A stretch of DNA of 61,606 bases, counting the filler. It is 3 parts of 3 records of this genome, joined end to end, with 100 filler letters (N's around TTAATTAATTAA, not from the genome) between each part and the next. Parts side by side here need not be neighbours in the genome. Positions count along the whole stretch, not along the records: positions 21,353 to 51,265 come from SRR2962707_1054; 2 more parts are not named here. The stretch is one strand, 5' to 3'. The position numbers and the translations under genes are program-made. Position 1 is the first letter of the stretch; each line of letters starts with the position of its first letter. A model generated the notes under the pieces. It was not told where the DNA came from. It made no database searches and was given only the letters and a program-made list of their open reading frames with translations. Below are positions 2,785 through 40,317 of this stretch, in pieces.

Positions 2785-4050
2785 GTGGATCATTTTGATT
2801 ATAAAGACGGTGTATTATGCGCCGAAGATGTGAGTGTGCAGGCGATAGCCGATGCCGTTGGCACACCCTTTTATTGCTATTCAACCGCTACATTAGAACG
2901 GCACTACAAGGTTTTTGCCGATTCATTCAGCGATATTGACGCGCTTGTTTGTTACGCGATGAAAGCCAATTCAAACCAAGCCGTGCTCAAAACATTGGCC
3001 AAGCTTGGTTCTGGCGCTGATGTGGTTTCCGAAGGTGAATTGCGCCGCGCATTGGCTGCGGGTATTCCCGCTTCAAAAATCGTGTTTTCCGGCGTTGGCA
3101 AAACCCCGCGTGAAATGGATTTTGCGCTGGAAGTAGGCATTCACTGTTTCAATGTTGAATCTGAGCCTGAGTTAGAACTGCTTTCTGAACGTGCCATTGC
3201 GATGGGCAAAGTTGCGCCTGTGTCACTGCGCATTAATCCTGATGTGGATGCAAAAACCCATCATAAAATTTCGACCGGTAAAAAGGGCGATAAATTCGGC
3301 ATTTCCTATTTGCGTGCGCGCGATGTTTATAAACGCGCTGGCGAATTAGCCGGTATTCAAGTGACTGGCATTGATATGCATATTGGCAGTCAGATCACGG
3401 ATCTGCAGCCATTTGATGATGCTATCGGCCTGTTGGTTGATTTGATTGGCACATTGCGTAGCGATGGTCATGATATTCACCATGTAGATTTGGGCGGCGG
3501 ACTTGGTATTCCATACAAATTGGACAACGCGCCGCCACCTTTGCCTGATGCTTATGCGGCGATTGTTAAAAAACATGTCAAACCGCTCGGCATACAGGTC
3601 ATTTTTGAACCTGGCCGTTTGATCGCAGGCAATGCAGGTATTTTGGTCACGCAAGTTTCTTACGTAAAACACACCGAAGCAAAATCATTTGTGATTGTTG
3701 ATGCTGCGATGAACGATTTGATCCGTCCCACACTTTATGAAGCATTTCATCAAGTTGTGCCGGTTGTTAAGTCTGCTGCGGATGCGGCTTATTTTGTTGC
3801 TGATGTGGTGGGTCCAGTGTGTGAATCGGGCGATTATCTTGCGCAAGATCGTAATTTGCCTGAAATGAACCCGGGTGATTTGCTCGCGGTTAAGACCGCG
3901 GGCGCTTATGGCGCTGTGCAGGCGGGTACTTATAATACGCGGCTTTTGGTTCCCGAAGTCATTGTAAATGGTGATCAATTTCATGTGGCGCGGCCACGCA
4001 CCAGCTATGAAGAGCTGATCGCACTTGATTCAGTTCCTGACTGGTTCTGA
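2785..4050 (+). CDS. lysA: Diaminopimelate decarboxylase
   Basis: YAMKAN PLP lysine, HIGSQ, DLGGG, EPGR, GPVCESGD, GAYG. Confidence 0.97.
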   Translation: MDHFDYKDGVLCAEDVSVQAIADAVGTPFYCYSTATLERHYKVFADSFSDIDALVCYAMKANSNQAVLKTLAKLGSGADVVSEGELRRALAAGIPASKIVFSGVGKTPREMDFALEVGIHCFNVESEPELELLSERAIAMGKVAPVSLRINPDVDAKTHHKISTGKKGDKFGISYLRARDVYKRAGELAGIQVTGIDMHIGSQITDLQPFDDAIGLLVDLIGTLRSDGHDIHHVDLGGGLGIPYKLDNAPPPLPDAYAAIVKKHVKPLGIQVIFEPGRLIAGNAGILVTQVSYVKHTEAKSFVIVDAAMNDLIRPTLYEAFHQVVPVVKSAADAAYFVADVVGPVCESGDYLAQDRNLPEMNPGDLLAVKTAGAYGAVQAGTYNTRLLVPEVIVNGDQFHVARPRTSYEELIALDSVPDWF

Positions 4051-4159
4051 CTTCGGATTAACGTCCTAACAAAAGAGTGACTGAAATTGCCGCAAAGTGG
4101 TCTCGCCTTTGCCTTTTTGTCTGCTATCTTGATAGCGAACAGGAGAGCAATGAGCACCG

Positions 4160-6823
4160 ATGGCGGATAAAACGCCCCTTCACAGTGACGAAACATCGGC
4201 GCGCGCGCGGGCGATGCGTTCGCGGTTGCGTTCTGCTCGCTTGTGGAGCCGATTATCTATTTTCTGGGAAAGCGCCGCCCCTGCGATTTTGCCGCTTTTA
4301 GTCGTCATTGCGGTCTATTTAACGTGTTCGTGGCTTGGCCTTTTTAGAGTCGTGCCTGATCTGTGGCGCATTGGCCTTGGCAGCCTGTTTGTATTTTTTG
4401 CCATTTGCTCATTGTATTTTCTGCGAACAATTCGCTGGCCGAGCGCGCATGAAGTTGATGCGCGCATTGAGCTTGATAACCATTTAATACACCAACCCAT
4501 CACTGCGCAGGATGATCATCTGGCGATTGGTGATGATGCTTTTGCACGCACATTGTGGCAGCTGCATCAGCGCAAATTGGCAGAGCATGTGGATGGTGTT
4601 CGCGGCGCAAGCGCCCGCACAATTATTCCGCAGCTTGATCCTTATGCGCTTCGCACGCTTGTTCCCTTAGCGCTGGTAAGCGCGTTTGCCTTTTCGCTTG
4701 GCACTTCGGGCGGCTCTGTATTGGATGTATTTCGCTCGCACGGCACTAATGGCGTTCTGGCTGCGCGCATTGATGCGTGGATTACACCGCCGCATTATAC
4801 CGGCGTCGCGCCGATATTTTTAACCTCAGAGATTAATGCTGCGCGCGATGCATATACAATTCCTGAAGGCAGTAAAATCGTCGTGCGTGTTTCAGGCGGT
4901 AGCGGCAGCGAAACTGTATTTTACCCAGATGCACAAAGCTCGGTGCCGCTTGGCGACGAAGCGCAATCAAACAGCGATGCACGTCAGTTTGAGATTACAG
5001 CACGTGTCGATGGCGATTTGCAGATTTCTACCGCTGACAATGCCTATCAATGGCATATTTCGCTGATCGAAGACCAAGCACCTGAAATTGCATTTGATGG
5101 AAAATTGTCTCGTGCCGTCAATGGCACGATGACGATCCCCTATGTGGCGACGGATGATTTTGGGCTGGCGCGGGCCAACGCCTATGTCGAACTTGCTGAT
5201 AAAACAGATGGCCCTGCACGAGCTCTGTATCAAGCGCCTGAAATTAAGCTGACTTTGCCGCGCCGTAATTCTGACGGCAAAGCAAAAACGGCGATTGATT
5301 TGACCGAGCACCCGTGGGCCGGTGCGCGGGTAAAGATGGTGCTGGAGGCGGAAGATGATCTTGAGCAAATCGGACGCAGCGAAGAAATTCAGGCAGAATT
5401 GCCCGGCCGACCATTTTCAAAACCGCTCGCGCGCGCCCTGATAGAGCAACGCCGTAATTTGGCTTTGGATGCTAATCGCGCCCGCGCCGTTTATGATATG
5501 CTCGATTTGTTTTTGCTTTACCCCGAAGAAACGATCAACAACACATCGCATTTTTTAGGCATAACAACGGCTCTATCAAAACTTAGATATGCGCGCAGCG
5601 ACGAAGATTTGCGCGGTGTGGTCGACTATCTTTGGGAAGTGGCACGCAACATTGAAGATGGTGGGCTTTCAGAGGCTGAGCGCCGTCTAAAAGATGCGCA
5701 GCAAGCACTTTCCGACGCGCTGGAGAATGGTGCGTCAGACGAAGAAATAGAACAGCTTATGTCTGAGTTGCGCGATGCAATGAAAGAGTTTTTGAGCGAA
5801 TTTGCGCAGCAAAATCAAAATTCACCAAACGCTGACAATCAGCAGAACCAACAAAATGCACAACAATTGGATCAGAAAAGTCTCGATGACTTGTTGAACC
5901 GATTGGAAGAATTGGCAAAATCTGGCGCGCGTGACCAAGCCCAAGAGATGCTCTCGCAGCTTCAAAATATGATGAACAATCTGCAGATGGGCCAACATCA
6001 ACAACAGCAAGGCGATGGGCAAAATCAAGCGCAGCAGCAAATGAATGAGCTGGGCGATATTTTGCGCCAGCAGCAGGAATTGATGAACGATACGTTCAAA
6101 CGCAGCCAGCGCGGCGATCAGGGCGACGAAGGACAAAGTTCAGAGCAAGGCCAAAATCCGAGTGATGGCCAAGGCAATAATGATCAGGGTCAGCAAGGCC
6201 AGCGCCAAGGCGAGTTTGGTCAAAATGGTACTGAGCCTGGACAGCAGCAAGGACAACAAGGGCAGAGCCAACCTGGTTCCCCGCAGGGTGAAAATTCAGG
6301 GCAAGGGATGGCCGGTCAAGGCAAAGGCGATGGCGAAGGTGGCATTGAAGGTTTGGCAGAGGGCCAGCAGGCGCTGCAAGACAGGCTAGACCAGCTGAAA
6401 GATGGCCTGCGCGGTATGGGCATTAATCCTGGCGATGCGTTCGACGATGCTGGTCGTGCGATGGGTGATGCTGGCCAAGCGCTTGGCAAAGGCCTCGGTG
6501 ACCGCGCTTTGAATAAGCAGAGCAGCGCTATGGAAGCGCTGCGCCGCGGCGCACAGCAGATGATGGAGCAAATGCAACAGGCCAATCAGGGCCAAACAGG
6601 ATCAAGCGAGCCAGGTGGCACTCAAAATGCGCAGGGGCGCGATCCGCTTGGTCGCCCGCAAGGTTCTTCTGGACCTGACTTTGGCGATTCTGTGAAAATT
6701 CCAGACGAGATTGACGTGCGTCGCGCGCGTGAAATTCTTGAAGCTATTCGCAAGCGCCTTGGTGTTGGCGCATTGGAACAGTTTGAGAAAGATTATCTCG
6801 AACGCCTGCTTGATCTTGATTGA
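4160..6823 (+). CDS. TIGR02302/DUF4175-family membrane protein with Q/G-rich coiled-coil C-terminus
   Basis: N-terminal TM helices, AWITPPHYTG, DLTEHPWAG, RDPLGR and YLERLL terminus; usual position after lysA. Confidence 0.88.
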   Translation: MADKTPLHSDETSARARAMRSRLRSARLWSRLSIFWESAAPAILPLLVVIAVYLTCSWLGLFRVVPDLWRIGLGSLFVFFAICSLYFLRTIRWPSAHEVDARIELDNHLIHQPITAQDDHLAIGDDAFARTLWQLHQRKLAEHVDGVRGASARTIIPQLDPYALRTLVPLALVSAFAFSLGTSGGSVLDVFRSHGTNGVLAARIDAWITPPHYTGVAPIFLTSEINAARDAYTIPEGSKIVVRVSGGSGSETVFYPDAQSSVPLGDEAQSNSDARQFEITARVDGDLQISTADNAYQWHISLIEDQAPEIAFDGKLSRAVNGTMTIPYVATDDFGLARANAYVELADKTDGPARALYQAPEIKLTLPRRNSDGKAKTAIDLTEHPWAGARVKMVLEAEDDLEQIGRSEEIQAELPGRPFSKPLARALIEQRRNLALDANRARAVYDMLDLFLLYPEETINNTSHFLGITTALSKLRYARSDEDLRGVVDYLWEVARNIEDGGLSEAERRLKDAQQALSDALENGASDEEIEQLMSELRDAMKEFLSEFAQQNQNSPNADNQQNQQNAQQLDQKSLDDLLNRLEELAKSGARDQAQEMLSQLQNMMNNLQMGQHQQQQGDGQNQAQQQMNELGDILRQQQELMNDTFKRSQRGDQGDEGQSSEQGQNPSDGQGNNDQGQQGQRQGEFGQNGTEPGQQQGQQGQSQPGSPQGENSGQGMAGQGKGDGEGGIEGLAEGQQALQDRLDQLKDGLRGMGINPGDAFDDAGRAMGDAGQALGKGLGDRALNKQSSAMEALRRGAQQMMEQMQQANQGQTGSSEPGGTQNAQGRDPLGRPQGSSGPDFGDSVKIPDEIDVRRAREILEAIRKRLGVGALEQFEKDYLERLLDLD

Positions 6824-32421: not shown

Positions 32422-32807
32422 TGATTTCTCCAGATAACCGGTTTTGTCCTTGGCCCGGTCTCCCCCAAACATAAGAGCACGGCCACGGCCCGCTGGCGGT
32501 GGCCCCGGTGCTACCCGTATTCCTGATACTCCGGGTAAATATAGAGGCCGCCTGCGCGGATCGGTTCCCAGTCTGCGCCTCGTGGATTAAAGGGGCTTTA
32601 AGGCAGTGATAGCAGGTGGCGGCGAAGAACGCATTGTGCCCCCATGCCGAAATGGACGCAAAGACCGCCGCCGCCGGCGGCCGGGACCCTGTCGTTGGCG
32701 ACAAAGGCTGTTATATTGGCGCACAATGCCGTGGAGCCCCGAGCCGGGGCTCCGACATGATGGAAAAGGCCGCTGCCGGCCTGAGAGGACGCGAGTGGGG
32801 ATCACCG

Positions 32808-33800
32808 ATGAGTAATGAGAAGTTCTCCCAGAAGATGGGCGACCGGTTGCTGGACCCGGCCAATAACCGGATATGGAAAGGCGCCCTGTGGCTGATCGTG
32901 ATCCTGCTTCTGGTGGACGTACTGCTCGGCTGGTACTGGAGCTGGGAGCCGGATCTCCAGGAAGTGCGGGCGCTCGCCAATGCCCAGCCTGGAGAGGTCA
33001 CTACGCTGGAAGTGATCAACGTGGCCAGTACCCTGCTGGACAAACCGGGCGGTTATCTGAGCAACGACGTGCTGCCGCATCGACTGTGGCTGGATAACAT
33101 GCCGTCCTGGGAGTTCGGCGTGTTGGTGCAGTTACGCGATATGGTGCGGGTGATGCGCCGGGACATGAGCCGCTCCCAGTCCCAGAGTCAGGAAGACCGT
33201 AATCTGGCGATTGCCGAGCCACAGTTCAATTTCGACTCCCGCAGTTGGGCCATGCCCGCCACGGAAAGCGAGTACCGTAGGGGTATCCGCGCGCTGGAGC
33301 GTTACCTGGAGAGCCTGCGCAGTGGCGATGGCCGGTTCTACGCCCGGGCCGACAACCTGAATTCCTGGCTCAACGAAGTACAGAACCGGCTTGGCGCCCT
33401 CAGCCAGGACCTCAGCCGCAGCGTCGGGCGCACCACGCTGGACACCGAGGAAAATACCCCGGTGACTCAGCTGGACAGCAAGGAACGGGTGGTGAAAACC
33501 CCGTGGATGAAAATCGATAACGTTTTTTATGAAGCGAGAGGGGCGTCCTGGGCACTGGTGCAACTGATGCGGGCGCTGGAAGTGGATTTCGCCGACGTGC
33601 TACGCAAGAAGAACGCCACGGTCAGTTTCCGGCAGATGGTGCGTGAACTGGAAGCGACCCAGGAAACCCTGTGGAGCCCAATGGTTCTGAACGGCTCAGG
33701 CTTCGGCATCTTCGCCAACCATTCCCTGGTCATGGCCAACTACCTGTCCCGCGCCAACGCTTCCCTGATTGATCTTCGGAAGTTGCTGCAGGAGGGGTAG
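32808..33800 (+). CDS. DUF2333-family protein
   Basis: N-terminal TM, LLDKPGGYLSND, DNMPSWEFG, ANHSLVMANY. Confidence 0.88.
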   Translation: MSNEKFSQKMGDRLLDPANNRIWKGALWLIVILLLVDVLLGWYWSWEPDLQEVRALANAQPGEVTTLEVINVASTLLDKPGGYLSNDVLPHRLWLDNMPSWEFGVLVQLRDMVRVMRRDMSRSQSQSQEDRNLAIAEPQFNFDSRSWAMPATESEYRRGIRALERYLESLRSGDGRFYARADNLNSWLNEVQNRLGALSQDLSRSVGRTTLDTEENTPVTQLDSKERVVKTPWMKIDNVFYEARGASWALVQLMRALEVDFADVLRKKNATVSFRQMVRELEATQETLWSPMVLNGSGFGIFANHSLVMANYLSRANASLIDLRKLLQEG

Positions 33801-33802
33801 GA

Positions 33803-33839
33803 AAAGCAGGGAACAGTTAATAATGAATAGTTAATAGCG
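33803..33839 (+). repeat. Heptamer array, inverted relative to the two downstream copies
   Basis: AAAGCAG GGAACAG TTAATAA TGAATAG TTAATAG CG. Confidence 0.85.
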
Positions 33840-33928
33840 AAGAAAAAGGTTTGCGGTTCCGCAAGGCGTGTTTGTGTATCCGCAACTTTCTCTGAGAAAC
33901 CTGTTTGATGGTTTTTCCTGAAAACAAA

Positions 33929-34028
33929 GAGGCCGCGCCCAGCCCTTGGACGCGGCCTCTTTGCTGTCCGATCAACCTTTCTTGTCTCGCGCGCTATTCA
34001 CTGTTCACTATTAACTATTCACTGCTTT
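33929..34028. repeat. 100-bp direct repeat copy 1 (GC hairpin plus heptamer array)
   Basis: 81/100 ungapped identity to 36131-36230 by hand count; 13-bp perfect stem 33925-33937/33951-33963. Confidence 0.9.
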
Positions 34029-34761
34029 TTTTTGTTCCGAGAAAGCCGGCGAAGTTATACCACTTGAAAAACACGTCCACGTTGTCCAGGCCGGCGCGGG
34101 AGAGGATTTTGAGGTTCTCGTCCAGGCGGTAGGGGATCAGGACGTTTTCCAGGGCCTCGCGTTTTTGCGCGATTTCGGTTTCCGAATAGCCGTTGCGCTT
34201 CTTCATGTCGTAATAGAGCTTGATCCACAGACGGTTGAGGAAGGCGTCGTTGCCCAGCACTTTTTCCACCAGAATCAAGGTGCCGCCGGGTCTTAGTCCC
34301 GAGACGATTGAGTACAGCAGGGCTTCGCGATTGAGCGGGCGCACGAATTGCAGGGTGAGATTGAGCACCACCACCGAGGCGTCTTGTACCTGGACGCCCT
34401 CATTGAGATCGGCGTATTCCAGACGCACACGGCCAGACAGGCATTGCTCGGCCAGATTGTGCCGGGCCCGTTCCAGCATCGCCGGGGAGTAATCGCAGCC
34501 CACCAGTTCCACACCCGGCGCCACGGTTTGATCCAGCGTTTTCAAGGTGATGCCGGTGGAGCAACCCAGGTCGTAGATGCGGGAGCCCGGCACCGCGAAT
34601 TCCCGGGCCAGTTCCCCGATCATCCGCTGTTGCTCCCAATATTGAGGGATGCTGCGATCGAGCATGTCGTCGAAAACGGCGGCGGTGTCCTCGCCGAAAT
34701 CGAAATCGCTGATTGCCTGTTCCTCGGCGGCGAAGAGACGGTCCTTTTTTTGGGATGTCAT
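34015..34761 (-). CDS. cmoA: Carboxy-S-adenosyl-L-methionine synthase
   Basis: VFDDMLDRSIPQY, YDLGCSTG, LNLTLQF, NGYSETEIAQKREALENVL, KWYNF. Confidence 0.9.
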   Translation of the reverse strand: MTSQKKDRLFAAEEQAISDFDFGEDTAAVFDDMLDRSIPQYWEQQRMIGELAREFAVPGSRIYDLGCSTGITLKTLDQTVAPGVELVGCDYSPAMLERARHNLAEQCLSGRVRLEYADLNEGVQVQDASVVVLNLTLQFVRPLNREALLYSIVSGLRPGGTLILVEKVLGNDAFLNRLWIKLYYDMKKRNGYSETEIAQKREALENVLIPYRLDENLKILSRAGLDNVDVFFKWYNFAGFLGTKKSSE

Positions 34762-34981
34762 AAAGTTGTCCCCGAAATCAACCAGGATCGGTGGTCATTG
34801 CCTTGGTTCTGATGCGCTGGCGCATGCCGTCTCCCTGGAGTATCCCGCAGGATCATGACAGTTGTGTTGATTTCGGGGCCACGGCTGGAATCCAGGGCGT
34901 GCGCGGAAAGAGGGTATTCCGCGCGGTACACACCCAATTGATGCGATAGTCGAACGGGAGGGCCTCTTGTCCAAAACCTCG

Positions 34982-36115
34982 ATGCATAAGTATAAGTGGG
35001 AAAAATACCTTCCTATCCGGCGCACCAAACTGCGCAGCTATCTGGTGGGGGGCGGCGTGCTGCTCGGCCTGGCGGGGCTCAATACCATGGCGGCGTTGCC
35101 GTTTTCGGTGGGCGCGGTGTTCATGGCCCTGGCGGCCTGGCTGCACGTTTGGGCGAAAGGGCATTTGGATAAGAACGCCACTCTGACCCGGTCCGGTCCT
35201 TACCGCTGGGTCCGCGACCCATTTCATCTGTCCAATTTTTTCATGGACCTGGGGCTGTGCCTGATCATCAATAACGGGGTATTCACCTTGGTGATGATGA
35301 CGTTCTGGGTCATCGCCTATCGGCACCGGTTATGGGAGGAGGATCAGCAACTGGTGGAGATTTTTGGTGACGAGTACCTGGATTACCGCGCCCGGATTCC
35401 ACGCATGATTCCCTACAGGCCGCCGATGGAAAAGAAGTACGACAAACCTTTCTCGGTCAGGCACGCGCCGATCTACCGGGGCAGCGTCTGCACCCGGCTA
35501 TTCCGGCTCGCCTCTTATCCTTATTTATTTTTTGTTGCCGCGGAGATCGGTCAGAAAGGCACCGACCTGCTTGCGGCGCAAGAGCATCCCGCTTTTTACT
35601 GGGCTCTGACGGGCTTTCTGTTCTTCCACTTCCTGTCCCGAGCGGCGGGTGAGATCACTAAAAGGCGAGCCTCCATCTTGCCGCTGTGGACGTTGCGTCA
35701 TCCGGCCCGGGGCGTGATCGTGTCGATAATGGTGGCGGCGCTGCTGGCGGTGGACATGTTGTGGTCCGGACCGCGCATTCTGGAATGGCATCTGGACGGA
35801 GGGCAGTGGCTGATTTTGTTGGTGGCGGCGATGTTATTGGTGGCGACGCTGCGCGGGCTCTGGCACAGCGTGCGCTTTCGCCGTCTGATCGAGGGCACCG
35901 CTCTGGTCGTGGCCTGGTTGTTCACCCCGGTGCCGTGGCTGGCGCTGGTGCCGGCCTGTTATTTCTCCGCCGCCTTTCTGTACGGTGATCCGGACCAGCC
36001 CGAGGCCGATGTGGACCATGTCTTTCTGGCCACGAAAACCGACGGCGCGGCGTTGGCGGCACTGGGGTTGTGGATGCCACTGATACTGATCGGTCTACCC
36101 GCCACCTGGTTCTAG
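34982..36115 (+). CDS. ICMT/PEMT-fold membrane transferase with long hydrophobic C-terminal extension
   Basis: WAKGHL..LTRSGPYRWVRDPFH and EEDQQLVEIFGDEYLDYRARIPR; additional C-terminal TM segments. Confidence 0.8.
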   Translation: MHKYKWEKYLPIRRTKLRSYLVGGGVLLGLAGLNTMAALPFSVGAVFMALAAWLHVWAKGHLDKNATLTRSGPYRWVRDPFHLSNFFMDLGLCLIINNGVFTLVMMTFWVIAYRHRLWEEDQQLVEIFGDEYLDYRARIPRMIPYRPPMEKKYDKPFSVRHAPIYRGSVCTRLFRLASYPYLFFVAAEIGQKGTDLLAAQEHPAFYWALTGFLFFHFLSRAAGEITKRRASILPLWTLRHPARGVIVSIMVAALLAVDMLWSGPRILEWHLDGGQWLILLVAAMLLVATLRGLWHSVRFRRLIEGTALVVAWLFTPVPWLALVPACYFSAAFLYGDPDQPEADVDHVFLATKTDGAALAALGLWMPLILIGLPATWF

Positions 36116-36130
36116 GACGTTCCATAAGAC

Positions 36131-36230
36131 GGGGCCGCGCCCAAGGCTAGGGCGCGGCCTCCATGCTTTCGGATGAACCTGTCCTGTCTCGCGCGCTGTT
36201 AACTATTCCCTGTTAACTATTAACTGCTTT
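36131..36230. repeat. 100-bp direct repeat copy 2
   Basis: GGGGCCGCGCCC..GGGCGCGGCCTC hairpin, then TGTCTCGCGCG and CTGTTAA CTATTCC CTGTTAA CTATTAA CTGCTTT. Confidence 0.9.
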
Positions 36231-37090
36231 CACGCCACCGAACTGACCGCCGGCTCCGGCAGGGTGTCACGCCATTTCGCCACCAGATCGGTGTTGTCGT
36301 CGTCCCAGGGATGGAAGCGCGGGCTCAGATAGCGGAACCAGGCCGGTACGGTGGAGCTGATCACGCCCCGGTAACCGAACAGACGCCACAGGCCCTTGGC
36401 CAGCGTCAGCGGTTGCCGGTGGACGCCGTCCTGCTTCAGAAACTGCCAGGTGAAATAGCTGGTGAAGGTAATCAGATAGGCGGTGCTGATCAGGAAGGCG
36501 CGTTGGCGCTGCCAGTAGTCGCCGTCCACATCCTGGTACAGATCGAAGGCCACGGCCTTGTGTTCGGTTTCCTCGATGGCGTGCCAGACCCACAAGGGGC
36601 GCACGGAAGGATCCATGCTCTCGATCACGTCCTTGTGGCTGAGAATGGTGTCGGCGAGGATCGCGGTGATGTGTTCCAGACCGGCGGTGGCGGCCAGTTG
36701 TCGCTCTGGCGGCAAATGCTTGCGGGCGCCGGCCAGCAGCTTCTGCGTGACGTTCAGGGCGCGTTCGACCAGCGCATCGTAACCCTGTCCCGCCACCAGA
36801 TCGTTGAAGGCCTTGTGCTCCAGGGAATGCATCGCCTCCTGGCCAATGAAGCCGGAGATGTCCTTCTGCCGTTGCGGGTCGTCGACGCGGTCGCGGAAGG
36901 CGCGTACCGCGTCCACGAAAAAGCGTTCGCCATCAGGAAAGGTGATGGAAAGGACGTTGAGAAGATGGGTGGCCACCGGATCATCGCCATACCAATAGCC
37001 GGCTTTCTCCAGACCTATGAAATCGAAGTTCATGCGCCGCACCTTGATCGGCTGGCGTGATTCGCTACGTCGACGGGAAAACAATCGCAT
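36230..37090 (-). CDS. Predicted metal-dependent hydrolase (PF10118-like)
   Basis: FPDGERFFV, FIGQEAMHSLEH, WHAIEETEHKAVAFD, FHPW; start at ATG 37090. Confidence 0.9.
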   Translation of the reverse strand: MRLFSRRRSESRQPIKVRRMNFDFIGLEKAGYWYGDDPVATHLLNVLSITFPDGERFFVDAVRAFRDRVDDPQRQKDISGFIGQEAMHSLEHKAFNDLVAGQGYDALVERALNVTQKLLAGARKHLPPERQLAATAGLEHITAILADTILSHKDVIESMDPSVRPLWVWHAIEETEHKAVAFDLYQDVDGDYWQRQRAFLISTAYLITFTSYFTWQFLKQDGVHRQPLTLAKGLWRLFGYRGVISSTVPAWFRYLSPRFHPWDDDNTDLVAKWRDTLPEPAVSSVA

Positions 37091-37177
37091 CGGGCTCTCC
37101 TGGCGATTCTGCCAATGTTGAATGTCCGTCAATATGCTCCAGTAGCGGTGGCGGGTCTTGTCGTGGAGGGCCAACCT

Positions 37178-38209
37178 GTGGTGACTTTGGGCCGTGCCTG
37201 GTTCGATGCCGGTATCCCCGGCATCTATGTGGTGCTGTTGTGTGATGTGATGAAAGGGCTGGGCAAGGACCCCGCCGCTTTGCTGGGCGGTGTGGGCGAA
37301 AGCCGCGAGCAGTTGCTGGCGCCGCAGAGCCGGGTGCCGCTGGAGCTGGCCCAGCGTTGCGCCGAGCAGGCCCTGGATATGGCCGGCTCCGCCGGGCTGG
37401 GGTTCCGCTATGCCCGGGCCATGCGCATTACTCTGCATGGTCCGGTGGGGCTGCTGGCGCTGTCCAGTGCCACTCTCGGCGATGGTCTCGATGCCGCGCG
37501 GCGCTACCTGGGGCTGCGGGCGCCGTTCTGGCACATGGACCGGCGCGAGGAGAATGGCCGGGTGATTTTCCCTCTGGTGGCCAATGCCGATCCGGGAAGG
37601 ATTCATGCCTTCGTGGTGGAGGCCATGCTGGTGGGATTCATCCACATGCTGGAACAGTTGCTGGAAGCGGTGCCGGAGGGGGCACAGCTGCACTTCCGGC
37701 AACCGCCGCCGCCCCATGCCATGGCGTTGAGGGGGGACGTGCCGGTGCCGGTCCGCTTCAATCAGGATGAGGACGCGCTGGTTTTGCCGCGAGCGCTGCT
37801 GTCGGTGGCGCCACTGTTGGCGGATCCACAGACCGCGGCCCTGGCGCGGGAACAATGCGAGGCAGAGGTCAGCCGCTGGCGTTCGGAACAGGAGGGGCCC
37901 CTGGCCGAGCGGGTGAGGGTGGTGCTGCGTGATACGCCGGCGCCATTACCGGACCTGGCGGCCATGGCGGAACGCATGGCGGTGTCGGCAAGGACGCTGA
38001 AACGGCATCTCCAACAGGCAGGGTCAAGCTATCGGCAAGTCCAGGACGCAGTGCTTTACGAACGGGCGCGGGCGCTGCTCAAGGATCGCCATCAGCGGGT
38101 CAGTGATGTGGCCTATGCGTTGGGCTACAACGACGTGGCGAACTTTTCCCGGGCGTTCAAACGCTGGAGCGGGGAGACGCCGAAACAGTACCGGAACGGT
38201 AGACACTGA
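37178..38209 (+). CDS. AraC-family transcriptional regulator
   Basis: HGPVGL ligand-binding domain; SARTLKRHL and LGYNDVANFSRAFKRWSG HTH; GGAGG before GTG 37178. Confidence 0.92.
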   Translation: MVTLGRAWFDAGIPGIYVVLLCDVMKGLGKDPAALLGGVGESREQLLAPQSRVPLELAQRCAEQALDMAGSAGLGFRYARAMRITLHGPVGLLALSSATLGDGLDAARRYLGLRAPFWHMDRREENGRVIFPLVANADPGRIHAFVVEAMLVGFIHMLEQLLEAVPEGAQLHFRQPPPPHAMALRGDVPVPVRFNQDEDALVLPRALLSVAPLLADPQTAALAREQCEAEVSRWRSEQEGPLAERVRVVLRDTPAPLPDLAAMAERMAVSARTLKRHLQQAGSSYRQVQDAVLYERARALLKDRHQRVSDVAYALGYNDVANFSRAFKRWSGETPKQYRNGRH

Positions 38210-38305: not shown

Positions 38306-38983
38306 ATGCGAATTCTTCTCGTGGAAGACGACGAATTACTGGCTGACGGGTTGGTGAGGGCATTGCGGCATGACGGCTACACCGTGGATCACATCGGACG
38401 CGGTGATCTGGTTTCGTCGGCGGTCGCGGATGGGCACTTTGATGCGGTGTTGCTGGACCTGGGGTTGCCTGGCGAGGATGGATTGAGCGCCTTGAAGCGA
38501 TTGCGCGAACGCCGGGACCCGGTGCCGGTGATCATTATCAGCGCACGGGACAGGCTCGATGATCGCATTCTCGGGTTGGATGCCGGTGCCGACGACTATC
38601 TGATCAAGCCCTTTTCGGTGGACGAACTGAGAGCCCGTCTGCGTGCCCGTCTTCGCCGTGGTAGTGAGCCGGCACGTACCGTATTGCGAGCGGGTACCCT
38701 GACTATCGATCCGGACGCGATGACGGTGCAGCGGGACGGGGAACTGCTCCATCTGCCGAGGAGGGAGATGGCGTTACTGATGGAACTGGCCAGGCAACCC
38801 GGGCGGGTATTCGGCCGCGATTACCTGGAGCAGGCGCTGTATGGGTGGAGTGACGAAGTGGAAAGCAATGCGCTCGAAGTACATGTGCATCATCTGAGGC
38901 GCAAATTGGGAAACAGCCTGATTCGCACCGTGCGTGGCGTGGGCTATGCTCTCGCTCTTCCTGATGACAGTGACCGCGCCTGA
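38306..38983 (+). CDS. OmpR-family response regulator (QseB/PmrA-like)
   Basis: MRILLVEDD, LLDLGLP, GADDYLIKPF, SNALEVHVHHLRRK. Confidence 0.95.
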   Translation: MRILLVEDDELLADGLVRALRHDGYTVDHIGRGDLVSSAVADGHFDAVLLDLGLPGEDGLSALKRLRERRDPVPVIIISARDRLDDRILGLDAGADDYLIKPFSVDELRARLRARLRRGSEPARTVLRAGTLTIDPDAMTVQRDGELLHLPRREMALLMELARQPGRVFGRDYLEQALYGWSDEVESNALEVHVHHLRRKLGNSLIRTVRGVGYALALPDDSDRA

Positions 38984-40317
38984 TGTTTTCCATTCGCCGC
39001 TTCCTGATGACGACGCTGATTGCCCTGATCCTGGGCAGCGGAATGCTGCTGGTGTGGGGGACCTATCGAACGCTCTATCATGAAATGGATGAGCAATACG
39101 ACGCGGAGCTGGTGCAAAGTGGCCGTCTGATGGCGGCATTCTGGCGGGATGGCCATCCCCCGCAACCGGAGATCGCCCAGCTTGAACCCCGTGAACACCG
39201 CTATCAACGATATTTCGTTTATCAGCTTTGGCGTGACGAAGAACTGATCCTGGCTAGCAGTGGTGCACCGGAGCGTGCTCTGCTGCCTCTGGACAATCCG
39301 GAGGAAGGAGGCAGGTATCGGGAGACAGGTGGCTGGCATGCCTACGCATTGCCGTTGTCCGGCGGTCGTTGGGTGGTGGTGGCGGAGAGCGACAAGGCAC
39401 GCCGCTCGCTGGTGTCCAATACCGCCATCACATTGTTGACGCCCTATGTATTGACCGTCCCGGTGATCCTGCTGCTGGTGTGGCTGGCGATTCGCCGGGG
39501 GTTGGGGCCTCTGACCCGCCTGGCGAGGTCCGTGGAGAGTCGGGACGCGGATAACATGGCGCCGATTCGTCAACGACCGGTTCGGGAGTTGGCGCCGCTC
39601 ACCGACGCGATAAACACACTTCTGGCACGCCTGGTGAACACCCTGGAACGGGAAAAGCGATTTACCGCTGACGCCGCTCATGAATTGCGGACACTGCTGA
39701 TGGCGCTCCGGCTCCACGCTGATAACGCGACTGAGCTGAATGATCCGGCGGATGTGGCGGCTTCCATGACCCAACTGAGAAAAGCGGTGGACCGGGCGGC
39801 AAGAACCGTCGAACAATTACTGCTTCTGGCACGTCTGGACCCGCAATCGGTGTCGGCGCAACAGCATTGTGATGCGGTTGCCGTGGCGAGGGACTGTGTG
39901 GCGCTGGTGGCTCCCCTCGCGGAACAGCAGGGGCAAACAGTGACGCTTAAGGCGCCGCCACAGGCCTGGTTGGGGTTGCCCGCGGAAACGGCGGACATGT
40001 TGATGCGTAACCTGTTGGACAACGCCTGCCGTTACTCTCCCCCCGGCACCGACGTTACCGTGGATATCAGCGAGGGCGACGGGAATGTCAGGATCGAGAT
40101 CAGCGATGGCGGTCCGGGGCTTACCGAGGAACAGCAGCGTCGCTTCAGCGGACGCTTCAGTCGCGGACGGCAGGATGTCCCCGGGGCCGGTCTGGGACTG
40201 TCCATTGTCGAACGCATTCTCTCCATCCATGGGGGCGCGTTGCGATTTCGTCTGCGCTCATCCGAGCGGCCGGCCGCCGCCGTGCTGACATTGCCGGCCG
40301 CCGGTGGTTCCCGTTGA
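38983..40317 (+). CDS. Sensor histidine kinase (QseC/PmrB-like)
   Basis: Two TM helices, FTADAAHELRT, NLLDNA, DGGPG, GLGLSIV. Confidence 0.95.
   Translation: MFSIRRFLMTTLIALILGSGMLLVWGTYRTLYHEMDEQYDAELVQSGRLMAAFWRDGHPPQPEIAQLEPREHRYQRYFVYQLWRDEELILASSGAPERALLPLDNPEEGGRYRETGGWHAYALPLSGGRWVVVAESDKARRSLVSNTAITLLTPYVLTVPVILLLVWLAIRRGLGPLTRLARSVESRDADNMAPIRQRPVRELAPLTDAINTLLARLVNTLEREKRFTADAAHELRTLLMALRLHADNATELNDPADVAASMTQLRKAVDRAARTVEQLLLLARLDPQSVSAQQHCDAVAVARDCVALVAPLAEQQGQTVTLKAPPQAWLGLPAETADMLMRNLLDNACRYSPPGTDVTVDISEGDGNVRIEISDGGPGLTEEQQRRFSGRFSRGRQDVPGAGLGLSIVERILSIHGGALRFRLRSSERPAAAVLTLPAAGGSR

What the first reader, a model, noticed from the sequence alone, without database searches (positions are those of the whole stretch)
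34015..36115. Orphan carboxy-SAM synthase divergently paired with an atypical membrane methyltransferase: candidate carboxymethylation system for a membrane substrate
Seen: a full-length cmoA with no cmoB beside it shares a 220-bp divergent intergenic region with an ICMT/PEMT-fold membrane protein, and the pair sits between direct repeats. Known: CmoA makes carboxy-SAM from SAM and prephenate, normally for the tRNA carboxymethyltransferase CmoB, and cmoA-cmoB are typically adjacent in gammaproteobacteria. The Arg of the QKR..LEN motif used for carboxy-SAM chemistry is retained (IAQKREALEN). ICMT/PEMT enzymes transfer groups from SAM to lipids, prenyl-cysteines or thiols. Inference: this CmoA is a second copy supplying carboxy-SAM to the partner, which would carboxymethylate a lipid or other membrane-embedded acceptor. 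I know of no such described activity. My impression is that the N-terminus (DFDFGEDTAAVFDDMLDRS) differs from typical gammaproteobacterial CmoA, hinting at lateral origin.
Basis: partly seen in the sequence, partly recalled or inferred. Interest (0 to 1): 0.82.

Follow-up and report, generated by a model that had tools for sequence, protein, structure and literature searches.

The report
CmoA gene paired with membrane transferase
A gene for the enzyme that makes the rare cofactor carboxy-SAM sits back to back with a rare membrane methyltransferase-like gene, and similar pairs in bacteria lacking the cofactor's usual tRNA user suggest an undescribed carboxymethylation of a membrane molecule.

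Summary
A 248-aa CmoA (34015-34761, minus) and a 382-aa ICMT/PEMT-like membrane protein (34967-36115, plus) are divergent neighbours between two 98-nt direct repeats.

- All 11 loci holding a close partner homologue carry this cmoA type next to it, in two genomic contexts.
- The nearest held genome also has a canonical cmoA-cmoB pair.
- The partner alone changes the conserved R(H/N)PxY pocket motif to RDPFH.
- In a 300-genome gammaproteobacterial sample, a separate 250-aa LmtA-like PEMT family lies directly downstream of the same cmoA type in 8 of 8 genomes. Six of the 7 genomes tested lack cmoB.

Corrections:
- This "type-2" cmoA is not a dedicated extra copy. It is the only cmoA in 13 congeners that lack the partner and in 3 genomes of another genus, all with cmoB elsewhere.
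- The flanking repeats belong to a genome-wide repeat family. They do bracket a cassette that is missing as a unit in one close relative.

Best reading (about 0.55): CmoA makes carboxy-SAM, and the partner transfers carboxymethyl to a membrane acceptor that remains unknown. Nothing here is biochemically tested. No paper describing such an enzyme was found.

The parts
34015..34761 (-). Type-2 cmoA, a predicted carboxy-SAM synthase of 248 aa. Arg-201 (nt 34159-34161) corresponds to E. coli Arg-199.
   Evidence: TIGR00740 234.3 bits against a cut-off of 193.3. E=6e-50 to E. coli CmoA 4GEK. The Arg is conserved in all 20 aligned CmoAs. Its role is taken from passages of PMC4482062.
34762..34966 (.). 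Divergent intergenic region of 205 bp. It holds a 16-nt inverted repeat at 34767-34782 / 34866-34881.
   Evidence: repeat I11, 94% complementary. No sigma-70-like site was found. The region is poorly conserved between clades.
34967..36115 (+). Partner: an integral membrane protein of 382 aa. The N-terminal half is ICMT/PEMT-like; the C-terminal half is a multi-helix extension with no known family.
   Evidence: Pfam ICMT and PEMT. Ma-ICMT 4A2N at E=4.4e-11. VIA-align top three of 48,161 chains are 5VG9 (Z 9.1), 4A2N (Z 8.2) and 8XKV_G (Z 8.2), matching model residues 5-150. AF2 model mean pLDDT 71.4.
35213..35227 (+). RDPFH (R83 D84 P85 F86 H87), standing in place of the superfamily's R(H/N)PxY motif.
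   Evidence: Present in 11 of 11 cmoA-linked loci and 0 of 149 other homologue loci. Among 146 motif-bearing sequences out of the best 150 representatives, only the partner's own cluster has it. Aligns to R125-H126-P127-M128-Y129 of 4A2N.
35444..36112 (+). C-terminal extension of the partner (residues 160-382), predicted helical, with invariant R177, R180, R234 and R303.
   Evidence: No Pfam family at E<=10 apart from one chance-level row. The nearest Atlas cluster is a 372-aa PEMT/ICMT family, mostly Planctomycetota, at score 0.76, which is only a lead.
33931..34028 (+). Left copy of the 98-nt direct repeat: a terminator-like GC hairpin followed by a CTRTTMA heptad array. It overlaps the last codons of cmoA.
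36133..36230 (+). Right copy of the 98-nt direct repeat, lying between the stops of the partner and of the metal-hydrolase gene.
   Evidence: The empty site in G027 keeps a single copy.
33803..33839 (-). Inverted heptad array directly after the DUF2333 stop codon.
   Evidence: (I2, I3, I7).
32616..33800 (+). Flanking DUF2333 gene. It serves only as a marker of the locus.
   Evidence: Pfam PF10095, 485.7 bits.
36230..37096 (-). Flanking predicted metal-dependent hydrolase (PF10118). It serves only as a marker of the locus.
   Evidence: Pfam, 295.2 bits.

Best explanation
The pair is a two-gene module for carboxymethylating a membrane-embedded acceptor. The cytoplasmic type-2 CmoA converts SAM and prephenate to carboxy-SAM. 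This step is inferred from equivalog-level homology and the retained Arg-199. The adjacent integral membrane protein has a cofactor site of the ICMT/PEMT type with an altered pocket motif (RDPFH). It would use carboxy-SAM instead of SAM and transfer -CH2-COO- to a nucleophile of a lipid or other membrane-bound molecule, giving a +58 Da product. This second step is inferred from gene linkage only. The acceptor is unknown. The closest named relatives (LmtA, ICMT) act on a lipid A phosphate and on a prenylcysteine carboxylate. The same CmoA also feeds CmoB for tRNA cmo5U where it is the only cmoA, so it is a shared supplier rather than a dedicated one.
For: 1. Linkage seen from the partner's side is complete. 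All 11 of 11 loci with a full-length partner of at least 57% identity have this cmoA type adjacent and divergent. These represent about six species-level lineages.
2. The pair occurs in two unrelated contexts: DUF2333/metal hydrolase, and hypothetical/alpha-beta hydrolase.
3. Of 149 other ICMT/PEMT-like loci with flanks of up to 6 kb, none has a cmoA at E<=1e-4 apart from one 46-residue chance hit.
4. The partner family is a single isolated 50%-identity cluster. It alone has RDPFH at the pocket motif.
5. There is independent precedent for the same logic. In 300 sampled Gammaproteobacteria, a 250-aa LmtA-like PEMT family scores at least 259 bits in 8 genomes from 8 families. In 8 of 8 it lies directly downstream of a type-2 cmoA on the same strand. 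In one of these the cmoA is frame-shifted.
6. Of the 7 such genomes tested, 6 have no cmoB. Five of those six are 95-100% complete.
7. One of 3 members of this family in Gemmatimonadota is also next to a cmoA.
8. The operon CmoAs pass TIGR00740 at 221-247 bits.
9. On the core-domain tree the two cmoA-linked membrane families are separate lineages.
10. G001 has a canonical cmoA-cmoB pair as well. G027 has flank proteins 96-97% identical and lacks cmoA2 and the partner together.
11. Published precedent exists for methyltransferase homologues switched to carboxy-SAM: TglF and MccB (PMC10491745, passages) and phage CmoX (PMC12783734, abstract and passages).
Against: - There is no biochemical or lipid data.
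- All partner-family loci come from one bacterial family. Pair-linked and partner-less CmoA2 interleave on the tree. The adjacency may therefore be inherited from one ancestral pair, with the partner lost several times.
- The partner is dispensable. Thirteen congeners keep cmoA2 at the same locus without it.
- CmoA2 plainly has another client, CmoB: all 19 of 19 genomes of the genus have cmoB.
- Distant full-length relatives in Planctomycetota have no cmoA nearby.
- The LmtA-like family keeps the ordinary RNPLY motif, so there is no shared carboxy-SAM signature.
- Asp-84 is acidic, which does not obviously favour binding a carboxylate.
- I could not place residues relative to the cofactor because no coordinates were available.
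Confidence: 0.55

Rival explanations
1. The adjacency is inherited and carries no shared chemistry. CmoA2 is simply the housekeeping carboxy-SAM synthase for CmoB, acquired from another lineage. The partner is an ordinary SAM-dependent membrane methyltransferase that happened to sit next to it in the ancestor.
For: - CmoA2 is the only cmoA in 13 congeners without the partner and in 3 g9 genomes, with cmoB elsewhere.
- Three further Gammaproteobacteria have type-2 cmoA as their only cmoA, with cmoB on another contig.
- The partner was lost repeatedly.
- All partner loci lie in one bacterial family.
Against: - The partner is never found apart from cmoA2, even after relocation to a second genomic context.
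- A second, unrelated PEMT lineage shows the same linkage in 8 of 8 genomes, mostly without cmoB.
- The pocket motif is changed only in the linked family.
Confidence: 0.25
2. The partner is a SAM-dependent carboxyl O-methyltransferase, as ICMT is. It methyl-esterifies a carboxymethylated or otherwise carboxylated membrane product, in the way CmoM caps cmo5U. Carboxymethyl transfer itself would be done by another enzyme.
For: ICMT-family enzymes methylate carboxylates (family descriptions). CmoM methylates the cmo5U carboxylate (PMC12783734 passage).
Against: No candidate carboxymethyltransferase other than CmoB was seen near the pair. In the cmoB-less genomes the cmoA-PEMT operon has no conserved third gene.
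Confidence: 0.07
3. The partner no longer transfers alkyl groups. RDPFH would mark a degenerate cofactor site, and the protein would act as a membrane sensor, a regulator or a binder of SAM-like molecules.
For: The His/Asn and Tyr of the otherwise near-universal motif are both replaced. The 220-residue C-terminal extension has no known family.
Against: The rest of the ICMT cofactor region is kept (GPYRxxR, EE...L...F...Y..Y). The family is conserved with 44 invariant columns. The substitution is fixed, not scattered.
Confidence: 0.08

Closest known systems
CmoA-CmoB of E. coli and most Gammaproteobacteria (tRNA cmo5U34)
   Same: A CmoA homologue that passes the equivalog model and keeps Arg-199. 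The logic is the same: a carboxy-SAM synthase encoded beside its user.
   Different: CmoB is a soluble Rossmann-fold enzyme acting on tRNA and is co-directional with cmoA. Here the neighbour is an ICMT/PEMT-fold membrane protein, divergently transcribed. The CmoA is of a separate clade, 36-43% identical to the family's cmoB-linked type.
TglE/TglF (3-thiaglutamate) and MccS/MccB of Bacillus (microcin C)
   Same: CmoA homologues recruited to supply carboxy-SAM for a non-tRNA acceptor (PMC10491745 passages).
   Different: The PMC10491745 passages seen describe TglF as highly similar to CmoB and acting on a peptide thiol. That MccB's transferase is also a soluble enzyme, and that it acts on a nucleotide, is my recollection; the passages seen do not cover it.
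Phage CmoA/CmoX (5-carboxymethylcytosine, Synechococcus phage S-B43)
   Same: A cmoA without cmoB lies next to a member of an ordinary methyltransferase family that has switched donor. Function was first inferred from the neighbourhood (PMC12783734).
   Different: CmoX has a DNA C5-methyltransferase fold, DNA as acceptor and a phage setting. A key Arg binds the carboxylate there; no equivalent residue could be assigned here.
ICMT/Ste14, Ma-ICMT (4A2N), LmtA (lipid A 1-phosphate methyltransferase), PEMT, MddA
   Same: Homologous cofactor-binding core (E=4.4e-11 to 4A2N). The fold match ranks 1-3. All are integral membrane proteins.
   Different: The partner falls below every curated subfamily cut-off: 47.4 against 160, 47.1 against 325, and 21 against 270. 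It has RDPFH instead of R(H/N)PxY, a 220-residue extra C-terminal membrane domain, and obligate linkage to cmoA.
cmoA + 250-aa LmtA-like PEMT operon found here (uncharacterised)
   Same: Type-2 cmoA next to a PEMT-superfamily membrane protein.
   Different: It is co-directional with 6-53 nt gaps. The protein is short, with the normal RNPLY motif and 18-26% identity to the partner, and it forms a separate clade. It occurs mostly in cmoB-less genomes.

Membership tests
CmoA, carboxy-SAM synthase (TIGR00740) | Score above the curated equivalog cut-off | tested here: met
   234.3 bits against 193.3. The narrower enterobacterial model NF011995 is not reached (174.9 against 285).
CmoA, carboxy-SAM synthase (TIGR00740) | Full-length homology to solved CmoA structures | tested here: met
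   4GEK at E=6e-50 over residues 5-244; 1IM8 at E=1.6e-47.
CmoA, carboxy-SAM synthase (TIGR00740) | Arg-199, the only side chain contacting the carboxylate of carboxy-SAM | tested here: met
   R201 in QKREALEN aligns with the Arg of QKRSMLEN in 4GEK. The role is taken from a passage of PMC4482062.
CmoA, carboxy-SAM synthase (TIGR00740) | Formation of carboxy-SAM from SAM and prephenate | not testable with these tools
   Indirect only. The same type is the only cmoA in 19 genomes that keep cmoB: 13 Alloalcanivorax, 3 of genus g9, and G360, G177 and G246.
CmoA, carboxy-SAM synthase (TIGR00740) | Adjacency to cmoB (typical but not defining) | tested here: not met
   Within the flanks fetched (about 1.5 kb or more, less at contig ends), 0 of 19 type-2 loci in the family and 0 of 13 in the class sample are next to cmoB. 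The canonical type is next to cmoB in 10 of 10 loci with room; L192, a 1.2-kb contig, was left out.
ICMT/PEMT superfamily (PF04140, PF04191) | Pfam gathering scores | tested here: met
   ICMT 29.8 against 24; PEMT 29.7 against 25.
ICMT/PEMT superfamily (PF04140, PF04191) | ICMT-like fold of the cofactor-binding half | tested here: met
   5VG9 Z 9.1 (124 aligned, rmsd 3.6) and 4A2N Z 8.2 (140 aligned, rmsd 4.7) rank 1-2 of 48,161 chains. These Z values are middling for helical proteins. Foldseek on the whole model found nothing.
ICMT/PEMT superfamily (PF04140, PF04191) | Conserved R(H/N)PxY motif of the pocket | tested here: not met
   RDPFH in the partner family. R[HN]PxY in 142 of the 146 motif-bearing sequences among the best 150 representatives. 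RDPFH in none of the 149 other homologue loci, which mostly carry R[HN]PxY.
ICMT/PEMT superfamily (PF04140, PF04191) | C-terminal EE...L...F...Y..Y cofactor segment | tested here: met
   WEEDQQLVEIFGDEYLDYRARIP aligns with the same segment of 4A2N, 5V7P and 8XKU.
Characterised subfamilies: protein-S-isoprenylcysteine O-methyltransferase, LmtA, MddA | NCBIfam curated cut-offs | tested here: not met
   47.4 against 160; 47.1 against 325; 21 against 270.
Carboxy-SAM-dependent carboxymethyltransferases (CmoB, TglF, MccB, CmoX) | Genetic linkage to a CmoA homologue | tested here: met
   11 of 11 loci.
Carboxy-SAM-dependent carboxymethyltransferases (CmoB, TglF, MccB, CmoX) | Homology to the known carboxy-SAM users, which are Rossmann-type for CmoB per PMC10491745; the fold of the others is recalled | tested here: not met
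   The partner is an all-helical integral membrane protein. This lowers the claim that it belongs to these families, not the claim that it works like them.
Carboxy-SAM-dependent carboxymethyltransferases (CmoB, TglF, MccB, CmoX) | Basic residue(s) contacting the S-carboxymethyl group (Lys91/Tyr200/Arg315 in CmoB; a key Arg in CmoX) | tested here: inconclusive
   Candidates are H87 and R83, but no coordinates or carboxy-SAM docking were available.
Carboxy-SAM-dependent carboxymethyltransferases (CmoB, TglF, MccB, CmoX) | Carboxymethyl transfer activity and preference for carboxy-SAM over SAM | not testable with these tools
   Needs an enzyme assay.

The most novel reading that the evidence does not exclude
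PEMT/ICMT-fold integral membrane enzymes include at least two separately recruited lineages that use carboxy-SAM rather than SAM. One is the rare 382-aa Alcanivoracaceae partner. The other is a widespread 250-aa LmtA-like family that sits in an operon with type-2 cmoA, mostly in cmoB-less bacteria. Together they would install carboxymethyl groups on lipids, for example on a lipid A or phospholipid phosphate, carboxylate, amine or thiol. That would be a class of membrane modification, and a role for carboxy-SAM, not yet described.
Probability: 0.45. Interest if true: 0.85.

Novelty: new variant of a known kind. Interest (0 to 1): 0.72.

Why it matters
Carboxy-SAM has four known natural users: tRNA, a peptide thiol, a peptidyl-nucleotide and phage DNA. 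CmoB has a Rossmann fold and TglF is its homologue (PMC10491745 passages); that the other two are also soluble Rossmann-type enzymes is my recollection. Authors of the CmoB work wrote that other acceptors remain to be discovered (PMC4482062 passage).

A membrane-embedded user would extend the cofactor to lipid or envelope chemistry. It would explain why some bacteria keep cmoA without cmoB. It would also give a testable function to thousands of proteins annotated as "isoprenylcysteine carboxyl methyltransferase family".

The test is simple. Natural presence/absence variants exist among close Alloalcanivorax relatives, and E. coli already makes carboxy-SAM.

The finding also warns that annotating every CmoA homologue as a tRNA enzyme may be too narrow.

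Tried and rejected
- Own-genome search: the window's assembly is not held. I used G001 and relatives instead.
- Rfam scan of 33000-37500: only two chance-level rows.
- Sigma-70 scan of the locus: 0 sites. Terminator-like sites: 7 against 3.9 expected.
- Alignment of the divergent intergenic region: conserved only among the closest species.
- Foldseek of the whole AF2 model against the PDB: no match at E<=0.001.
- C-terminal half: no Pfam family. The Atlas gave only a 0.76 lead to a Planctomycete PEMT cluster.
- RNA libraries X1-X4 (one study, kept as contigs): contigs cover both genes in 4 of 4 runs. In X3 they break in the intergenic region (258-nt contig at depth 4.6, against 80.4 and 53.2 on either side). 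Contigs cannot show strand or level, and 18-31 kb contigs suggest DNA carry-over or read-through. I do not use this as evidence.
- Flanking repeats as a sign of a mobile element: rejected. They belong to a dispersed repeat family and no mobility gene is present. What remains is that they bracket the unit missing in G027.
- A shared carboxy-SAM motif in both linked membrane families: rejected. The LmtA-like family has RNPLY.
- Planctomycete long-form relatives as further linked cases: rejected. None of the 3 genomes has a cmoA above cut-off or nearby.
- Kim et al. 2013 (doi 10.1038/nature12180) is not held. I took Arg-199 from PMC4482062 instead.
- I did not run complex prediction, because the explanation does not require the two proteins to bind.
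- Contig-length coincidences suggest three more pairs in the big protein collection: P0008/P0032, P0011/P0031 and P0013/P0023. The contigs could not be fetched, so these are not counted.
Full report
**What is there**

The window carries a 248-aa ORF at 34015-34761 on the minus strand and a 382-aa ORF at 34967-36115 on the plus strand.
- The first ORF passes the CmoA equivalog model TIGR00740 at 234.3 bits against a cut-off of 193.3. It aligns end to end with E. coli CmoA 4GEK at E=6e-50.
- The second ORF passes Pfam ICMT and PEMT over residues 54-135. It stays far below the cut-offs of every characterised subfamily: isoprenylcysteine methyltransferase, LmtA and MddA.
- Its profile matches Ma-ICMT 4A2N at E=4.4e-11. 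An AF2 model (mean pLDDT 71.4) has ICMT structures as its three best fold matches among 48,161 chains, with Z of 9.1, 8.2 and 8.2 covering model residues 5-150.
- Residues 160-382 are a helical extension with no Pfam family.
- The flanks are a DUF2333 gene and a PF10118 metal-hydrolase gene.
- No cmoB lies in the window.

**Organism and second copy**

The window's own assembly is not held. The locus is 99% identical in protein to Alloalcanivorax xenomutans (L007) and to the nearest held genome, G001.

G001 has two cmoA genes. One lies directly upstream of cmoB on contig 13. The other is the window's type on contig 22, next to the partner. The two CmoAs are 40% identical.

**The partner is rare and always linked**

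- A search of 5.8 billion proteins found 14 relatives.
- An exhaustive HMMER pass over 1.84 billion cluster representatives found one representative of the partner's own 50% cluster. The next hit drops to 31% identity.
- Scans of genome and metagenome contigs gave 160 loci with ICMT/PEMT-like relatives.
- Eleven of these hold a full-length partner at 57% identity or more (L007-L012, L087-L091). All 11 have the window's cmoA type adjacent and divergent. They amount to about six species-level lineages, because several are near-duplicates.
- None of the other 149 loci has a cmoA in its flanks at E<=1e-4, apart from one 46-residue chance hit.
- The pair occurs in two contexts. In Alloalcanivorax and one metagenomic lineage it lies between DUF2333 and the metal hydrolase. 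In another genus (g9) it lies between a hypothetical gene and an alpha/beta hydrolase.
- Full-length but distant relatives (29-35% identity) in Planctomycetota have no cmoA nearby, and none above cut-off in their genomes.

**The cmoA is not a dedicated extra copy**

In 70 genomes of the family, the partner occurs in 6: three of 19 in the window's genus and three of 4 in genus g9. The window's cmoA type, at 74-99% identity, occurs in 19 genomes.
- Within the flanks fetched (about 1.5 kb, less at contig ends), it is next to cmoB in none of those 19. The family's ordinary type (36-43% identical) is next to cmoB in 10 of 10 loci with room. L192, a 1.2-kb contig, was left out of that count.
- Thirteen congeners have the type-2 gene as their only cmoA, at the same DUF2333/metal-hydrolase locus and without the partner. 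All 19 genomes of the genus have cmoB.
- In g9, the three genomes with the partner have only the partner-linked cmoA. Their cmoB is solitary. In two of them the upstream flank is visible and holds unrelated genes and no cmoA remnant. These are MAGs of 76-90% completeness.
- Three further Gammaproteobacteria also have type-2 as the only cmoA, with cmoB on another contig.

Type-2 CmoA is therefore very probably a working carboxy-SAM synthase that also serves CmoB.

The Arg-199 position is Arg in all 20 aligned CmoAs. A passage of PMC4482062 says Arg-199 is the only side chain that contacts the cofactor's carboxylate.

On a tree of 90 CmoAs, type-2 is separated from the family's canonical type by a long branch with support 100. 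Its closer relatives (61-70% identical) include proteins labelled Thiohalocapsa and Burkholderiales. Pair-linked and partner-less sequences interleave, and the label needs at least four changes. The simplest history is an ancestral pair with repeated loss of the partner.

**A wider, independent linkage**

- In an even sample of 300 Gammaproteobacteria, 13 genomes have a type-2 cmoA.
- I fetched the 13 loci of the 12 non-Alcanivorax genomes.
- In 7 of them the next gene downstream, on the same strand and 6-53 nt away, is a roughly 250-aa PF04191 protein. In two of these the ORF calls overlap.
- Searching the same 300 genomes with a profile of those seven proteins found the family at 259 bits or more in 8 genomes from 8 families. 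In all 8 it is next to a type-2 cmoA. In the eighth, the cmoA is split by a frame shift.
- Of the 7 genomes tested for cmoB, 6 have none. Their completeness is 75, 95, 98, 99, 100 and 100%.
- The seventh, G352, has two type-2 cmoA genes. One is beside the PEMT-like gene and one is alone, and the genome also has cmoB.
- These cmoA genes pass TIGR00740 at 221-247 bits.
- The family's best named relative is LmtA, the lipid A 1-phosphate methyltransferase, at 78-87 bits against a cut-off of 325.
- The large protein collection holds 4341 relatives at E<=1e-20. They are annotated only as isoprenylcysteine carboxyl methyltransferase family proteins or, once, as "Lipid A phosphate methyltransferase".
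- In a sample of 151 Gemmatimonadota, 3 genomes have the family and 1 of those 3 has cmoA beside it.
- This family is 18-26% identical to the partner (hhalign probability 97.7). On a core-domain tree it forms a separate clade, while the partner groups with the Planctomycete long forms. That tree has only 108 columns, so its resolution is weak.

Two separate PEMT-superfamily lineages are thus tied to type-2 cmoA. One of them occurs where the known user, CmoB, is absent.

**A pocket change specific to the partner**

The superfamily's R(H/N)PxY motif corresponds to R125-H126-P127-M128-Y129 in 4A2N. These residues line the cofactor/substrate cavity according to a docking study of 4A2N (PMC12643142, passages), which is a weak source.
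- The motif is RDPFH in all 11 linked loci and in none of the 149 others.
- Among the best 150 representatives, 146 have a recognisable motif. RHPxY occurs 72 times, RNPxY 70 times, and RDPxH once, in the partner's own cluster.
- The LmtA-like family keeps RNPLY, so this is not a general signature.
- I could not place D84 and H87 relative to the sulfonium.

**The repeats**

The 98-nt direct repeat is real. It consists of a GC hairpin plus a CTRTTMA heptad array. It belongs to a dispersed family, with 47 matches in G001 and 166 pattern matches against 0 in the control.

In G027 the flanking proteins are 96-97% identical to the window's. There, DUF2333 and the hydrolase are 219 nt apart with a single copy of the element, and neither cmoA2 nor the partner is present. 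G027 has only the canonical cmoA, which lies beside cmoB. The repeats are therefore not evidence of a mobile element. They do bracket a 2.2-kb cassette that is present or absent as a unit.

**Literature**

Passages and abstracts seen name four natural users:
- CmoB, TglF and Bacillus MccB (PMC10491745, PMC7496830, PMC4482062).
- Phage CmoX (PMC12783734).

The searches were as follows:
- Carboxy-SAM terms from 2021 onward gave 53 papers. The 40 top-ranked were listed, and none concerns a membrane or lipid user by title or abstract.
- "cmoA" with "isoprenylcysteine" gave 0 papers.
- "cmoA" with "phospholipid methyltransferase" gave 0 papers.
- NCBIfam release 20 has no model that either membrane family reaches.

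Subscription journals and supplements were not searchable.

**Verdict**

The partner very probably depends on carboxy-SAM made by its neighbour (about 0.55, against about 0.25 for inherited adjacency without shared chemistry). The cmoA, however, is a shared, often sole, housekeeping copy rather than a dedicated one. The acceptor is unknown and nothing has been assayed.

Noticed in passing
window 33803-33839, 33990-34028, 36194-36230; G001 genome-wide: A dispersed intergenic repeat made of tandem CTRTTMA heptads. It often occurs as inverted arrays around a GC hairpin and sits directly after stop codons of convergent genes. G001 has 166 pattern matches against 0 in the reversed control. The reverse complement carries stops in all frames. 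Its nature (REP/MITE-like element, terminator module or protein-binding array) is unexplained.
   Followed up: partly
window 34767-34782 and 34866-34881: A 16-nt inverted repeat (94% complementary, 83 nt apart) lies inside the divergent cmoA2-partner intergenic region. It is conserved in the closest species (L008, partly L009) but not in the other clades. It could be an operator or a 5'-UTR structure.
   Followed up: partly
genus g1 and g9 genomes: The canonical cmoB-linked cmoA has been displaced by the unlinked type-2 cmoA. Thirteen of 19 congeners and 3 of 4 g9 genomes keep a solitary cmoB and only the type-2 gene. Three genomes of g1 have only the canonical cmoA, and three have both types.
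   Followed up: yes
L222 (G187:C3), about 5270-5948: The type-2 cmoA upstream of the LmtA-like PEMT gene is read in two frames (HSPs at 5948-5565 and 5560-5270). This is either a frame-shifted pseudogene or an assembly error.
   Followed up: no
G352 (L213 and L221): One gammaproteobacterial genome carries two type-2 cmoA genes. One is in an operon with the PEMT-like gene and one is alone, and the genome also has cmoB. This parallels the two-cmoA state of the window's species.
   Followed up: partly
L220 (G161:C1), 3566-4264: A thiopurine S-methyltransferase (TPMT) gene and a beta-carbonic anhydrase flank a solitary type-2 cmoA. This is probably coincidence.
   Followed up: no
window 37115-38209 and 38306-40317: An AraC-family regulator lies divergent from the metal-hydrolase gene, followed by an OmpR-type response regulator and histidine kinase pair downstream. 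These are conserved with the locus in Alloalcanivorax. No link to the pair was seen in the g9 context.
   Followed up: no
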